Origin: Narcine bancroftii
Lineage: Eukaryota
NCBI RefSeq assembly: GCF_036971445.1
Contig: NC_091472.1
Span: forward strand, 91,636,001-91,700,000
Reading direction: 5' to 3'
DNA: 64,000 nt
The notes beneath the pieces are model-generated. The model had not been told where the DNA came from and did not search any database. It worked only from the letters and a program-made list of their open reading frames with translations. The position numbers and the translations under genes were made by a program. Of the stretch, positions 2,658 through 8,734 are shown in pieces (position 1 is the first letter of the stretch; every line of letters begins with the position of its first letter).

Positions 2658-2945
2658 TTTGATCAAGTATTATATATTATACTGTAGTGATATGATTATA
2701 TGTACTGGCAGGCCTGACCTCTGGGTGTCCTCCTACCTTGGCTCCTCCCTTAGTCCTGCCCATGTGACCCTGTGCCATAAAGGTCGAGTCCCCTCTCCTT
2801 CCTGCTCATTCCTAGCCTTGGACCCGAGCCAGCAGTCTCTAGTACAATAAAGCCTATTGTTCCCCTCAGTCTTTGTCTGTGACGTTATTGGGGCTACTGA
2901 TAGCGCCCAACAATTTATTGTACTAGATTTTGGAGGTCTGCGGTA

Positions 2946-4001
2946 ATGGAGAAATTGCTGTGCCCAGAACAGCTAGAAGTTGACCCCCAAGTCCCAGGTT
3001 CTTCGGTGCTCTTCAAGCAGTGGATGAACTGCTTCAACAACTTCCTCAACGCTGCTGCTGAGGTGATCGACTCTGATGAGAAATTAAAAATCCTTCAGGC
3101 ACGAGTCAGCCAGAGGGCCTTCCTGACCATCCAAAGCAGTGCGACCTACAACGAGGCGATGGCTGAACTGCGGGCGCTGTACAAGCCTAAAGTGAATGTA
3201 GTATACTCCCGTTACCTGCTTGTGTCCAGAAAACAACAGCCTGGTGAATCCACTGAAGAGTTCATCCGGTCCCTGGTCACATTGGGAAAAGACTGTTTGG
3301 GGGAACCCACGGCCACAACATCCCTAACCCAGTGCATAGAAGAACTGATTCGAGACGCCTGCGTATCGGGTCTGAGGTCAGATTATATCCGGCATCGACT
3401 CCTCAAGGAGGACCCGCTCCCACTCAAAAGGGCTATCGACTTTATCAGGACTTTAGACTTGGCCCAGCGCCAAGCGGTGTTGATTGCGGGCAGAAGTGAG
3501 CCATCTCCGTATGTTCCACTGCGAGGGCCTTTGGCCTGGGACTCAGCGTCAGGCATTACCGACCCAACCATGGCTGCAATTACACCGATGGCATCGTCGA
3601 GATGCAACTTCTGCGGGCAGTCCAAGCATTTGCAATGCCTCTACCCCGTGAAGGGGACTAAGTGTTCAGGCTGCATGAAGAAGGGCCATTACCAGAAGGT
3701 CTGCAGGTCCCGACCACAGTCCAGCGCAGTGTGCATTCCAGAGGAGCTTCCGGCACTGACTGCATGCGTGGTAAGGGGAGCGCCATTTTGTCGGCATTCG
3801 CTCCCAACCTCAGTACCTCGGCCTACCACCCCAATGATGTCACTTCTGACTGCCATGACTCCACTTCCTCCTTCTTCCTCATCGAACTCTGCATGGTCAA
3901 CATGGAGGTCGTCATCTTGGGAAGGCCTCCCCACTGATGACAATGATGAAGGGATGCCTATCCTGGCATCGGTCACTCTGAATCAAGCTAGCCTCACCTG
4001 A
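2946..4001 (+). CDS. Gypsy Gag-like ORF (351 aa) with zinc-knuckle region
   Basis: Open ORF right after the 5' LTR; RKQQPGESTEEF MHR-like motif, IRDACVSGL, a CCHC knuckle CSGCMKKGHYQKVC and a degenerate one CNFCGQSKH. Confidence 0.75.
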   Translation: MEKLLCPEQLEVDPQVPGSSVLFKQWMNCFNNFLNAAAEVIDSDEKLKILQARVSQRAFLTIQSSATYNEAMAELRALYKPKVNVVYSRYLLVSRKQQPGESTEEFIRSLVTLGKDCLGEPTATTSLTQCIEELIRDACVSGLRSDYIRHRLLKEDPLPLKRAIDFIRTLDLAQRQAVLIAGRSEPSPYVPLRGPLAWDSASGITDPTMAAITPMASSRCNFCGQSKHLQCLYPVKGTKCSGCMKKGHYQKVCRSRPQSSAVCIPEELPALTACVVRGAPFCRHSLPTSVPRPTTPMMSLLTAMTPLPPSSSSNSAWSTWRSSSWEGLPTDDNDEGMPILASVTLNQASLT

Positions 4002-4012
4002 TCTCGAACTCC

Positions 4013-6833
4013 ATGATGTGGATCGAGGTGAATGGGCATAAAACAAACTGTTTCGAGCACCCTGATGTGGTCCAGAGACTCTACCTCCCAGTCCAACCCA
4101 TGACCAGGACTGTTTCAATGGCTGCAAGGGACCAACAGACCAGTATCCCGGGGTATTGTGTAGCGTTGCTGACGGTGGGGGGGGGGGGTGAGTGTTATAA
4201 CGATTTATACCTTGCCTCTGCATGCCGATCCTCCATGGGCCTCGACTTCCAGAGTCAGTTCAGGAGTGTGGTGATGGCATTCAGGGGCTCCCAACCACCG
4301 CTGACCTTCCACAACCACCAGTCCCCAGCACTGCCTGTGGTCCCAACACTCAGTCTCTGGCACTGTCCTGCAACCTCACAACTCTACAGGTGCCCCCCAA
4401 CCCCCGGCACTGTTCACAAACCTCACCCTGGATTGCAAACCAATCGCCACCAAGAGTAGGTGCTATAGTTCGGAGGACATACAGTTCATCCAGGCTGAGG
4501 TTTAGCGACTCCTAGCAGAGGGGATCATTGACCCTAGCACCAGTCCTTGGAGGGCGCAGATACTCGTGGTCAGAGGTTCGGGCAAGCCCTGGATGGTAAT
4601 TGATTATAGTCAGACCATCAACTGCTTCACCCAGTTGGACGCATACCCACTACCCCGGATAGCCGACTTGGTCAATAAGGTCGCTAAGTACAGAATTTTT
4701 TCGACCATTGACCTCAAGTCGGCTTACCACCAACTCCCCCTCCATCCAGCCGATCGAATCTATATGGGTTTCGAGGCGGACGGGGAACTTTTCCATTTCC
4801 TGCGGGTGCCCTTCGGGGTTACTAACAGTTTTTCTGCCTTTCAGAGAGTGATGGACCAGACGGTGGAGGAGCACAAGCTGACGGCGACGTTCCCCTACCT
4901 TGACAATGTCACCATCTGCGGCCATGACCAGCTGAAACACGACACTAATCTCGCAAAGTTCTTGCGTCTGACCAAGTCCCTCAACTTGACATACAACAAG
5001 GACAAGTGCATGTTCAACATGGAGCGCCTGGCTCTTCTTGGATGTGTCATGGCACATGTTGTCATTGCCCCTCACCCAGACCAAGCGACCCCTCATGGAG
5101 CTCTCTGTCCTAAACACCCTGAAAGTTCTTAAGAGGTGCCTGGGGCTGTTCTCATATTATGCACAATGGGTGCCCAACTACGGCGATAAGGCCCACCCCC
5201 TAATTTGTATGACCACCTTTCCATTATTGGCAGAGGTCCAGGCTGCTTTTGACCAACTTCAAGGAGACATTGCTAAGGCCACGATGCATGCCGTGGATGA
5301 AACCGTCCCCTTTCAGGTGGAAAGCGATGCCTCCGATTTTGCACTGGCCACCACATTAAACCAGGCAGGTAGGCTAGTAGCATTTTTTTCCCGCACCCTG
5401 CATGGTCCAGAACTCCAGCACTCCTCCGTCGAGAAAGAGACTCAAGCTATCGTTGAGGAGGTGCACCACTGGCAGCGCTACCTAACCAGTAAGAGATTTA
5501 CCCTGTTGACTAACCAGAGGGCAGTGGCCTTCATGTTCAGTGCCAAACAACGGGGTAAGATCAAGAATGACAAGATCCTGAGGTGGAGGATTGAATTGTT
5601 GACCTACAACTATGATATCTTGTAGCTCAATGATCACCCCCCCACCTTCGGATGCCCTATCCCAAGGGACATGCGCCAGCACGCATCTTGATCATCTCCA
5701 GATCCTGCACGACAATCTGTGTCACCCCGGAGTCATGAGGTTGTACCATTTTGTCAAGACACGAAACCTCCCATACTCCGTAGAGTATGTCCGGTCCACG
5801 ACCAGATGCTCCCAAATCTGCACCGAGTGTAAGCCTCAGTTCTACTGGCCAGAAAAGGCACCCCTTATTAAGGCCACACCCTTTCGAATGACTTAGTGTC
5901 GATTTCAAGGGGCCACTCCCGACCACAAATAGGAACGCCTACTTCCTGACAGTGGTGGACGAATTCTCCAGGTTCCCCTTTGCAATTCCCTGCCCGAATA
6001 TGGCCTTGACTACGGTCATCAAGGACCTGAGCAATATCTTCACTCTGTTCAGGTACCCCAACTACATTCATAGTGACTGGGGGACCTCGTTCATGAGTGA
6101 GGAGCTGCGACAGTACTTTTTGGCCAGAGGCATAGCCACCAGCAGGACCACCAGCTGTAACCCCAAAGGTAATAGCCAGGTGGAAAGGGAGAATGGCACT
6201 GTCTGGAAGGTGACGCTCCTACCCCTTCGGTCCAAATTTTTGCCAGTATCCCGCTGGCAGGATGTCCTGCCTGAAGTTCTCCACTCCATCTATTCATTAC
6301 TGTGCACTGCTACTAACACTACCCCACATGAACGCCTTTTTGTTTTTCCTAGGAGATCGGCGAATGGTTCTTTCATCCCTCCCTGGCTGACAACCCCAGG
6401 GCCAGTTCTGCTTTGGAAGCATGTCAGGGGCCATAAGATGGACCCACTGGTTGAAGCGATGCACCTCATACATGCAAATCCTCAATACGCATTTGTGAGG
6501 TACCTGGATGGCCATGAGGACACTGTGCCAATACAAGACCTGGCAAGGGCTGGAGACCCTGAGACTGCCTTGCCGGCTACTGACCACGCCACAAACCCGA
6601 TTGTGCTGCATCAGAGCATGACCCTGGAGCCTGAGCTGCCTGCCTTGCAGCCGAACATTCAGGCATCTACAGCAATGGAGGACTTCCCAGCACTCTGGGA
6701 GTCCACTGCTAGCACCCCATCTCAGATAGTCCCTACACTGGATGCTCCCCTGTCAGTCCCCTCTCTGGAGGAATGCCGTATGGACACGCTGGTTCCACAG
6801 CGGTCCAGCAGACAGAGGAGGCCGTCCGTGTGA
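4013..6833 (+). pseudogene. Gypsy pol (protease-RT-RNase H-integrase), frameshifted
   Basis: RT motifs IDYSQTIN, IDLKSAYHQ, PFGVTN, YLDN; RNase H VESDASDFAL..VAFFSRTL; integrase HDNLCHPG..C..C, VDEFSRFPF, IHSD, QVEREN; split over several frames. Confidence 0.9.
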
Positions 6834-7253
6834 TTCAACCTCTAGCAAGAGGTATCTGCTTTCTCTCGCCGCTTGTAATAAGTGATAATACTGCGGCTGT
6901 TGTGCTTACTGTATTGTTATTGTTATAATTGTTGCTGTTGTCACCCCCGGTTTTGTTGTCTGTTTTCCAGGTATCCATTTTTTAAAAGAGGGGTTGAATA
7001 TAGTTAATATGATTATATGTACTGGCTGGCCCGCCCTCCAGGTGTCCTCCTACCTTGGCTCCTCCCTTAGTCCTGCCCATGTGACCCCGGGCCATAAAGG
7101 TCGAGTCCCCTCTCCTACCTGCTTATTCTTAGCCTTGGACCTGGGCCAGCAGTCTCTAGTACAATAAAGCCCATCATTCCCCTCAGTCTTTGTGTCATCA
7201 TTTGGGATACTGATAGCACCCAACATATACAGTAGTGTTTTAGTTCATCATAT

Positions 7254-8734
7254 GTTCTCCCAGAATCACAGTGTGGCTTTCGCGCAAACAGAGGATCTAC
7301 TGACATGATCTTTGCCCCCAGACAGCTCCAAGAAAAGTGCAGAGAACAAAACAAAGGACTCTACATCACCTTTGTTGACCTCACCAAAGCCTTCGACACC
7401 GTGAGCAGGAAAGGGCTTTGACAAATACTAGAGCGCCTCGGATGCCCCCCAAAGTTCCTCAACATGGTTATCCAACTGCACGAAAACCAACAAGGTCGGG
7501 TCAGATACAGCAATGAGCTCTCTGAACCCTTCTGCATTAACAATGGCATGAAGCAAGGCTGCGTTCTCGCACCAACCCTCTTTTCAATCTTCTTCAGCAT
7601 GATGCTGAACCAAGCCATGAAAGACCTCAACAGTGAAGACGCTGTTTACATCCGGTACTGCACGGATGGCAGTCTCTTCAATCTGAGGCGCCTGCAAGCT
7701 CACACCAAGCCACAAGAGCAACTTGTCCATGAACTACTCTTTGCAGACGATGCCGCTTTAGTTGCCCATTTAGAGCCAGCTCTTCAGCGCTTGACGTCCT
7801 GTTTTGCGGAAACTGCCAAAATGTTTGGCCTGTAAGTCAGCCTGAAGAAAACTGAGGTCCTCCATCAACCAGCTCCCCACCATGACTACCAGCCCCCCTA
7901 CATCTCCATCGGACACACAAAACTCAAAACGGTCAACCAGTTTACCTATCTCGGCTGCACCATTTCATCAGATGCAAGGATCGACAACGAGGTAGACAAC
8001 AGACTCGCCAAGGCAAATAGCGCCTTTGGAAGACTACACAAAAGAGTCTGGAAAAACAACCAACTGAAAAATCTCACAAAGATTAGCGTATACAGAGCCG
8101 TTGTCATACCCACACTCCTGTTCGGCTCCGAATCATGGGTCCTCTACCGGCATCACCTACGGCTCCTAGAACGCTTCCACCAGCGTTGTCTCCGCTCCAT
8201 CCTCAACATTCATTGGAGCGACTTCATCCCTAACTTCGAAGTACTCGAGATGGCAGAGGCCGACAGCATCGAATCCACGCTGCTGAAGATCCAACTGCGC
8301 TGGGTAGGTCACGTCTCCAGAATTTAGGACCATCGCCTTCCCAAGATCGTGTTATATGGTGAGCTCTCCACTGGCCACCGTGACAGAGGTGCACCAAAGA
8401 AGAGGTACAAGGACTGCCAAAAGAAATCTCTTGGTACCTGCCACATTGACCACCGCCAGTGGGCTGATATCGCCTCAAACCATGCATCTTGGCGCCTCAC
8501 AGTTCGGCGGGCAGCAACCTCCTTTGAAGAAGACCGCAGAGCCCACCTCACTGACAAAAGACAAAGGAGGAAAAACCCAACACCCAACCCCAACCAACCA
8601 ATTTTCCCCTGCAACCGCTGCAACCGTGTCTGCCTGTCCCGCATCGGACTTGTCAGCCACAGACGAGCCTGCAGCTGACGTGGACATTTATCCCTCCATA
8701 AATCTTCGTCTGCGAAGCCAAGCCAAAGAGAAGA
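7254..8734 (+). mobile_element. RTE-clade LINE (BovB/RTE-1-like), 5'-truncated
   Basis: LPESQCGFR, QLQEKCREQ, FVDLTKAFDTV, GMKQGCVLAP, LLFADD, C-terminal CNRC..SRIGLVSH; tail CCAAGCCAAAGAGAAGA; a few stops. Confidence 0.92.

What the first reader, a model, noticed from the sequence alone, without database searches (positions are those of the whole stretch)
2838..2927. Gypsy element lacks a tRNA PBS and has a perfect 14-nt complement to its own LTR over the poly(A) signal
Seen: after the 5' LTR ends (CA, 2912) there is no TGG tRNA-type PBS. One base later, TTTATTGTACTAGA (2914-2927) is the exact reverse complement of TCTAGTACAATAAA in the LTR (2838-2851; also 7155-7168 in the 3' LTR), and the match is perfect although the LTRs differ by roughly 10%. 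Known: Tf1/sushi-type chromoviruses self-prime by annealing the first bases of the transcript to the PBS. Inference: this element looks non-chromoviral, and the paired segment includes the AATAAA and lies about 30 nt past a plausible start (CATAAA at 2776, Inr-like CTCATTC at 2805). The same stem could (a) supply a tRNA-independent primer after cleavage or from the RNA 3' end, and (b) hide the 5'-LTR poly(A) signal while leaving the 3' one free. This would be a different self-priming design from Tf1.
Basis: partly seen in the sequence, partly recalled or inferred. Interest (0 to 1): 0.75.

Follow-up and report, generated by a model that had tools for sequence, protein, structure and literature searches.

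The report
Self-priming Gypsy retrotransposon clade in animals
This decayed jumping gene, like 37 of 41 testable relatives, has no tRNA docking site and instead carries a stretch that pairs with its own end-repeat, so the whole animal group likely starts copying itself with a piece of its own RNA, a trick proven so far in the yeast element Tf1.

Summary
Observation confirmed. A decayed 4.5-kb Gypsy element (2683-7225; 5-bp TSD) has no TGG site; 2914-2927 perfectly complements LTR 2838-2851 (background maximum 8-10 nt). The feature is clade-wide: 38 of 42 testable loci (25 families) pair at 11 or more of 12 positions, against 0 of 169 internal control windows and 0 of 19 LTR pairs of other Gypsy lineages. 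Sequences differ and covary (0 of 10,000 permutations reach the observed pairing). The duplex ends one base from the LTR's CA, where a primer 3' end must sit, and is followed by a second stem. These elements form one RT clade without chromodomain or GPY/F-type domain. Best reading: tRNA-independent self-priming with Tf1-like geometry and a mostly 11-18-nt primer (inferred; start site and cleavage unmapped). The 'different design' is only partly supported: the upstream TATA/Inr pair occurs in 2 of 25 families, and only 15 of 25 have a canonical poly(A) hexamer in the duplex, so signal hiding is possible but secondary. Clade name untested (Cigr-1 is a recalled lead). This scan reported the same signature before on other DNA. 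New variant of a known kind.

The parts
2678..2682 (+). Target-site duplication TATAC, left copy
   Evidence: 5-bp TSD in 10 of 16 LTR pairs tested, none resolved in the other 6
2683..2912 (+). 5' LTR, 230 nt, TG...CA
2776..2811 (+). CATAAA (2776-2781) and Inr-like CTCATTC (2805-2811): possible promoter of this family, spacing 32 nt; not conserved across the clade
   Evidence: sequence; 2 of 25 families have such a pair
2838..2851 (+). Predicted self-primer segment, ending in AATAAA (2846-2851)
2852..2906 (+). Predicted second stem starting directly after the primer end (2852-2860 with 2896-2906)
   Evidence: fold; a stem of 4 bp or more at this position in 19 of 25 families against 11.8 expected
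2913..2913 (+). One-base spacer between LTR end and primer-binding position
   Evidence: A in 22 and T in 3 of 25 families
2914..2927 (+). Primer-binding position, complementary to the element's own LTR, no TGG
2946..4001 (+). Gag region from the ATG, with two zinc-knuckle-type motifs (one degenerate in this copy); ends at an in-frame stop
3992..6833 (+). Decayed pol (protease region, RT with YLDN, RNase H, integrase; several stops and frameshifts); no chromodomain or envelope hit
6984..6998 (+). Polypurine tract
6999..7225 (+). 3' LTR, 227 nt; its copy of the segment (7155-7168) is predicted unpaired
7226..7230 (+). Target-site duplication TATAC, right copy

Best explanation
This is a dead copy of a compact animal Ty3/Gypsy lineage whose primer-binding position pairs with its own LTR instead of carrying a tRNA-type site, and which likely primes reverse transcription with a piece cut from the 5' part of its own RNA. 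Shown: the pairing, its conservation with changed letters across 25 families, its position one base from the LTR end, and its restriction to one RT clade among the elements compared. Inferred: transcription starts at or a few bases before the paired segment; that segment (14 nt here, mostly 11-18 nt in relatives) folds back over a 24-70-nt loop onto the primer-binding position; the RNA is cut just after the terminal AAA, at the junction with a second stem, probably by the element's RNase H as in Tf1; the new 3' end is extended through the spacer into U5 to make minus-strand strong-stop DNA, which transfers using the remaining R sequence. As a by-product the 5' AAUAAA is predicted to be buried and then removed with the primer, while the 3' copy stays free.
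For: Geometry: the segment's 3' end pairs with the base next but one to the LTR's CA, as a primer end must; CA precedes the spacer in 24 of 25 families and TGG follows in 0 of 25. Conservation: 38 of 42 testable loci pair at 11 or more of 12 positions, 0 of 169 internal control windows do. Covariation: 22 different 11-mers among 25 families; positions 4-11 pair in 193 of 200 cells against a permutation mean of 121.0 (max 152, 0 of 10,000), positions 12-14 in 56 of 75 against 33.4 (0 of 10,000); three or four pair types at several positions. Within the host's own family, contigs show A for T at 2924 (25 contigs, 27% of depth in run X1) and loose ends put T for A at its partner 2841 (42 contigs), unphased. 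Specificity: 19 LTR pairs of other Gypsy lineages show at most 6 nt of self-complement and 18 have TGG; the self-complementary families fall in one RT clade, SH-aLRT 100. Second stem after the primer end: summed length 105 against 89.4 +/- 5.4 in dinucleotide shuffles, 0 of 300. Short U3: only 52-55 nt from LTR start to primer end in L036, L061, L074; pairing stops at exactly 11 nt in L036, L061 and L072, and L061 has TATATA 28 nt before that start. Precedent: Tf1 pairs its first 11 bases with the PBS and RNase H cuts between bases 11 and 12 (PMC7175516, passage).
Against: No start site, cleavage site or cDNA end was observed; all mechanism steps are by analogy. The first base of the perfect run is T in 11 of 19 families with runs of 10 or more (A 5, G 3), which is unusual for a Pol II start (recalled), and no promoter motif is conserved at a fixed distance upstream. 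In this family a TATA-like/Inr-like pair points to a start near 2808, 30 nt upstream. Misses: L024 has no match of 10 of 12, L037, L047 and L074 reach 10 of 12; L154, a long-branch row inside the clade, has only 5 nt. Partners were chosen by maximising pairing over 12 nt, families are not phylogenetically independent, and the tree is the quick search only, without a chromovirus row. No host tRNA set could be searched.
Confidence: 0.63

Rival explanations
1. Self-priming with a longer primer: transcription starts further upstream (near 2808 here) and one cut after AAUAAA releases a capped fragment of about 44 nt that pairs only through its last 14 nt, like a tRNA.
For: CATAAA and an Inr-like motif 32 nt apart in this family and 33 nt apart in L001; paired length varies from 10 to 18 nt and its first base is mostly T.
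Against: Such a promoter pair in only 2 of 25 families; three families have only about 40 nt of LTR upstream of the segment.
Confidence: 0.13
2. The primer-binding position pairs with the 3' LTR copy of the segment (7155-7168) in the same or a partner RNA, and a cut or trimming after the AAA gives the primer from the RNA's 3' end.
For: The 3' copy is identical and predicted unpaired; pairing reaches upstream of the conserved AG at positions 11-10, into bases that a 3' copy would always contain.
Against: The local 5' hairpin is strongly favoured (z -3.9). A poly(A) junction at the segment has no upstream signal: 0 of 25 families. Cutting there would leave little R for strand transfer (inference).
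Confidence: 0.08
3. The helix is regulatory only (hiding the 5' poly(A) signal, or controlling Gag translation or packaging) and priming uses something else.
For: AAUAAA is fully paired in the 5' fold and free in the 3' fold; AATAAA or ATTAAA overlaps the duplex in 15 of 25 families; the Gag start lies 14-82 nt after the start of the site. HIV-1 regulates polyadenylation with a hairpin over AAUAAA (PMC2645353, abstract start in listing).
Against: 10 of 25 family representatives lack a canonical hexamer in the duplex and 4 families carry one outside it; a masking helix need not end one base from the LTR's CA; no other primer site is visible (TGG 0 of 25).
Confidence: 0.1
4. The site binds a tRNA half or another host RNA, and the LTR match is incidental.
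For: Half-tRNA primers exist in Copia lineages (PMC6317226, passages). Host tRNAs could not be searched.
Against: The site changes from family to family in step with the element's own LTR; no Rfam match at E up to 10 over 2660-3000.
Confidence: 0.03
5. Chance inverted repeat or a local rearrangement in this one copy.
For: AT-rich 14-mer; the copy is old and broken.
Against: Background maximum 8-10 nt; same arrangement in 38 of 42 loci.
Confidence: 0.01

Closest known systems
Tf1, Tf2 (Schizosaccharomyces pombe), Tj1 (S. japonicus) and the Tf1/sushi group: self-primed Ty3/Gypsy elements (PMC7175516, PMC4600332, PMC5341516; passages read)
   Same: No tRNA site; LTR segment complementary to the position just after the 5' LTR; primer end next to the LTR end; an adjoining RNA stem (for Tf1 known to me from paper titles in reference lists).
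   Different: Different lineage traits (no Chromo or SH3_Tf2-1 hit, two Gag zinc knuckles, single ORF of about 1,200 aa, short LTRs, RT often YLDN); paired length 10-18 nt rather than a fixed 11; the segment ends on a poly(A)-signal-like hexamer; nothing tested experimentally.
Predicted self-priming plant elements: Tcn1 chromoviruses and TAR (Houba/Osr-1) Copia (PMC6317226, passages read)
   Same: Self-priming called from the same kind of evidence (10 bp or more of LTR complement starting 0-5 bp after the LTR); TAR shows the trait is not confined to chromoviruses.
   Different: Plant hosts; TAR is Ty1/Copia; this clade is Ty3/Gypsy with named relatives in sharks, rays, insects and a coral.
Cigr-1 clade / Mag lineage of animal Gypsy elements (PMC6238403 passages and supplement rows; details of Cigr-1 recalled, not read)
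   Same: Recalled for Cigr-1: about 4 kb, LTRs near 245 bp, one ORF of about 1,200 aa, Mag/SURL-like Gag; these match the clade's anatomy.
   Different: No reference sequence was available, so identity is untested; the tRNA-primed elements that I took as Mag-like fall outside the clade. I found no description of Cigr-1's primer site.
HIV-1 polyA hairpin and foamy-virus poly(A) control (PMC2645353, PMC3694450; search listing and abstract start only)
   Same: RNA structure over AAUAAA as a way to favour the 3' over the 5' poly(A) site.
   Different: Those viruses are tRNA-primed (recalled) and the hairpin is in both LTR copies; here the masking strand exists only at the 5' end and is the primer-binding position.

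Membership tests
Ty3/Gypsy LTR retrotransposon | LTRs, TSD, PPT and gag-PR-RT-RH-IN order | tested here: met
   best PDB match Ty3 RT
Tf1/sushi chromoviruses | PBS position complementary to own 5' LTR, no tRNA site | tested here: met
Tf1/sushi chromoviruses | Chromodomain and/or GPY/F-type (SH3_Tf2-1) domain after integrase (Tf1 itself lacks a recognisable chromodomain, recalled) | tested here: not met
   no hit in the window integrase or in 6 of 6 clade polyproteins, while three Gmr1-like controls do hit SH3_Tf2-1
Tf1/sushi chromoviruses | RT groups with chromoviruses | tested here: inconclusive
   no chromovirus row in the tree; window RT scores 94 bits against Ty3, below non-chromoviral controls at 173, 168 and 102 bits, which argues against closeness
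Tf1-type self-priming mechanism | Primer is the first bases of the transcript | not testable with these tools
   only contigs available; they cannot show RNA ends; motif evidence mixed
Tf1-type self-priming mechanism | RNase H-dependent cut at the end of the paired segment | not testable with these tools
   RNase H domain present; cut not observed
Tf1-type self-priming mechanism | Supporting R-U5 RNA structure next to the primer duplex | tested here: met
   predicted only: stem directly after the primer end in 19 of 25 families, above shuffles
tRNA-primed Gypsy elements | TGG-starting PBS 0-4 nt after the LTR | tested here: not met
   0 of 25 families against 18 of 19 control LTR pairs
Gmr1 clade | Integrase upstream of RT (PMC3587641, passage) | tested here: not met
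Cigr-1 clade / Mag lineage | RT/RH groups with Cigr-1 or named Mag references | not testable with these tools
   no reference sequence obtainable; supplements of PMC6238403 list names, and the search found no YLDN string
Cigr-1 clade / Mag lineage | Two Gag zinc knuckles, single ORF near 1,200 aa, short LTRs (features recalled) | tested here: met
   two knuckles in 54 of 58 full-length homologues; LTRs 152-301 nt, elements 4.0-4.6 kb

The most novel reading that the evidence does not exclude
A widespread animal Gypsy clade evolved self-priming independently of Tf1 and built the primer's 3' end on its own poly(A) hexamer, so that one helix is a switch: unpaired, the 5' signal ends the transcript early; paired, it is hidden and cut right after AAUAAA to release a primer that in some families (this one included) is a longer capped fragment or comes from the 3' repeat, used by a reverse transcriptase whose YXDD motif often reads YLDN.
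Probability: 0.2. Interest if true: 0.75.

Novelty: new variant of a known kind. Interest (0 to 1): 0.52.

Why it matters
Self-priming has been demonstrated in fission-yeast Tf1 and predicted mainly for its chromovirus kin and one plant Copia lineage. A large non-chromoviral animal clade (sharks and rays, insects, coral among named relatives) with the same logic points to repeated, independent loss of tRNA priming, bears on the open question whether hairpin/self-priming or tRNA priming is ancestral (raised in PMC3601003), and predicts elements that escape silencing by 3' tRNA fragments. It is directly testable, because young relatives with 99-100% identical LTRs exist (L003, L004, L044). It also gives annotation tools a second type of primer site for elements now scored as having none.

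Tried and rejected
No whole genome is held for the window, so neither copies nor host tRNAs could be searched; the window has no tRNA gene and tRNAs found in G001-G004 lie mostly on long bacterial contigs and were not used. No RNA holder listed with certainty; RNA-guess runs are contigs and show no start, end or canonical splice joint. Viral contigs gave no relative. Rfam: nothing at 2660-3000. A 3'-splice-site-like tract seen by eye upstream of the segment in several LTRs is not above dinucleotide shuffles (20 of 200 reach it): rejected as a finding. A conserved TATA or Inr position: not found. Pairing beyond position 14 is not significant overall (positions 15-18: 666 of 10,000 permutations). 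Two chromodomain loci in G003 had no RT match and could not serve as chromovirus references. The careful tree did not finish; the quick tree was used. The Atlas search of Gag gave only generic retrotransposon Gag clusters. Searches used an anchor that presupposed the LTR-end motif (32 copies, 18 families); they were superseded by the unanchored search. Literature searches showed no paper describing self-priming in this clade; the library lacks Repbase Reports, GyDB and most subscription papers, and I recall (unverified) that some Repbase entries call fish Gypsy families self-primed.

Full report
Observation. The window holds one Ty3/Gypsy element at 2683-7225: LTRs of 230 and 227 nt (203 of 226 aligned positions identical), TATAC on both flanks, a purine tract at 6984-6998, and no further copy in the window. 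Gag starts at 2946; RT, RNase H and integrase are recognised by Pfam in separate frames, so the copy is broken. After the LTR's CA come one A and TTTATTGTACTAGA (2914-2927), the exact complement of 2838-2851 and 7155-7168. The longest complement to the LTR in 4,039 internal and about 59,300 outside 23-nt windows was 8 and 10 nt. That the match survived 10% LTR divergence needs no selection: probability 0.23 for two copies, 0.11 for three. [quoted passage not shown] Folded from 2838, the duplex forms in both minimum-energy and centroid structures (z -3.9), with a second stem directly after it; the 3' LTR copy of AAUAAA is predicted unpaired.

What the element is. The closest named proteins are uncharacterised polyproteins of sharks and rays (62-69% RT identity), followed by insects and a coral; 683 proteins passed E 0.001. 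Full-length homologues are single ORFs near 1,200 aa with two zinc knuckles in 54 of 58. No Chromo or SH3_Tf2-1 domain was hit in the window integrase or in 6 of 6 clade polyproteins. The window RT scores 94 bits against Ty3, less than three control RTs (173, 168, 102). In a quick IQ-TREE of 65 RT rows the 17 self-complementary families that gave an RT segment, with the named proteins, form one side of a branch with SH-aLRT 100 against 24 control rows; one further control row, L154, fell inside on a long branch. The tree has no chromovirus row and the careful search did not finish. Control labels: Gmr1-like from integrase-before-RT order (PMC3587641 passage), CsRN1-like from a PBS like that of GyRex2 (same paper), Mag-like recalled. 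Cigr-1 is a recalled lead for the clade's name; it could not be tested.

Relatives. I examined 90 loci from metagenome and MAG contigs plus the window. 47 of 91 had a Gag N-terminus; 5 were dropped for having under 130 nt upstream (L011, L013, L060, L084, L089); of 42 tested without any anchor motif, 38 had a complement of 11 or more of 12 between the 100 nt before Gag and the sequence upstream, against 0 of 169 internal windows. The four others were L024 (none), L037, L047 and L074 (10 of 12). Three dropped loci (L011, L013, L084) and L072 show the pairing by eye. The 42 copies form 25 families at 80% identity; with the first id of each as representative (L077 set on the register next to the LTR end), positions 1-11 from the primer end pair in 22-25 of 25, positions 12-14 in 21, 20 and 15, and position 17 onward at swap level. 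Permuting sites among families gave 0 of 10,000 at positions 4-11 (193 of 200 against 121.0) and 12-14 (56 of 75 against 33.4), and 666 of 10,000 at 15-18. CA precedes the one-base spacer in 24 of 25, TGG follows in 0 of 25. Caveats: the partner was picked by best pairing over 12 nt, and families are related. In 19 LTR pairs of other Gypsy lineages from G001-G003 (some near-duplicates) the self-complement was at most 6 nt and 18 had TGG. L154, inside the clade by RT, has only 5 nt; it is an older copy with 92% identical LTRs.

The host's own family. Contigs of four runs (two organisms) show an abundant family with more LTR than internal depth. A for T at 2924 is seen in 25 contigs of X1 (27% of depth) and 11 of X8; loose ends at 2842 (42 contigs, X1) read T for A at the partner 2841, and loose ends at 2923 (4 contigs, X8) continue complementary to that variant. 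This fits a compensated subfamily, but the two sides are not phased and 252 difference rows were not shown.

Mechanism. The duplex ends at a fixed place, one base from the LTR end, in nearly all families, and is followed by a conserved RCCT-like stretch that begins a second stem (19 of 25 with 4 bp or more, 11.8 expected; summed length 105 against 89.4, 0 of 300 shuffles). That is what a cut site at a helix junction would look like, and it parallels Tf1, where the first 11 bases pair with the PBS and RNase H cuts after base 11 (PMC7175516 passage). Where transcription starts is open. For a start at the segment: three families have only 52-55 nt from LTR start to primer end, pairing stops at exactly 11 nt in L036, L061 and L072, L061 has TATATA 28 nt upstream, and G at position 10 and A at 11 are conserved in an Inr-like context. 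Against: pairing usually extends 2-7 nt past that A, the first paired base is mostly T, no promoter motif is fixed in position, and this family has a TATA-like/Inr-like pair pointing to 2808, shared only with L001. A primer from a poly(A) junction at the segment lacks an upstream signal (0 of 25). Poly(A) masking fits this copy's fold, but the hexamer is canonical in 15 of 25 families and 4 families have a canonical signal outside the duplex; I treat it as a by-product or second role.

Comparison and novelty. It works like Tf1/Tf2/Tj1 but does not meet the chromovirus domain tests, so I do not file it in the Tf1/sushi group. Self-priming has also been predicted for plant Tcn1 and TAR Copia elements by the same criterion (PMC6317226 passages). 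Nine searches showed no description for this animal clade; Repbase Reports, GyDB and subscription papers were out of reach and may already note it. Papers seen: passages only of PMC6317226, PMC7175516, PMC5341516, PMC4600332, PMC6934838, PMC6238403 (plus a search of its supplements; one PDF and one slide file unreadable), PMC3587641, PMC8220671, PMC2864245, PMC5006619, PMC7472051, PMC5443660; passages and one of seven parts of PMC3601003 (supplements listed, not read); listing and abstract start of PMC2645353 and PMC3694450. Earlier notes of this scan report the same signature in other animal genomes, including a ray-like one; they are not independent evidence and I had recorded my reading before seeing them. 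Verdict: real, clade-wide, new variant of a known kind; interest 0.52.

Noticed in passing
window 4890-4910 and homologues P0001-P0120: The RT catalytic motif reads YLDN rather than YXDD in the window, in 67 of 120 homologues (48 DD, 5 unread) and in 15 of 17 family RTs (2 unread), including families with near-identical LTRs. No paper found for 'YLDN'.
   Followed up: partly
window 2790-2815 and 6950-6971; L011, L013, L025, L068, L084 LTRs: Pyrimidine tract plus YAG, like a 3' splice site, upstream of the primer segment and before the purine tract; not above shuffles across families. A spliced Gag RNA remains possible and untested.
   Followed up: partly
window 7260-8330: Broken non-LTR reverse transcriptase fragments directly right of the element; RTE-like by recalled motifs.
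   Followed up: no
G001-G005 (L081-L090, L121-L160): Several bacterial MAGs contain megabases of animal-like repeat-rich DNA with many intact Gypsy elements (146 and 144 matches in G001 and G002): assembly contamination.
   Followed up: partly
L066:1-140: A clade relative with a 14-nt self-complement that does not end in TAAA and has a 79-nt loop; its Gag N-terminus was not matched, so it was outside the counts.
   Followed up: no
L121, L122: Gmr1-like elements (integrase before RT) with a SCAN domain in Gag.
   Followed up: no
L042:4789-9203: An LTR pair of the L004 family lies in opposite orientation around the match, suggesting nested or inverted insertions.
   Followed up: no
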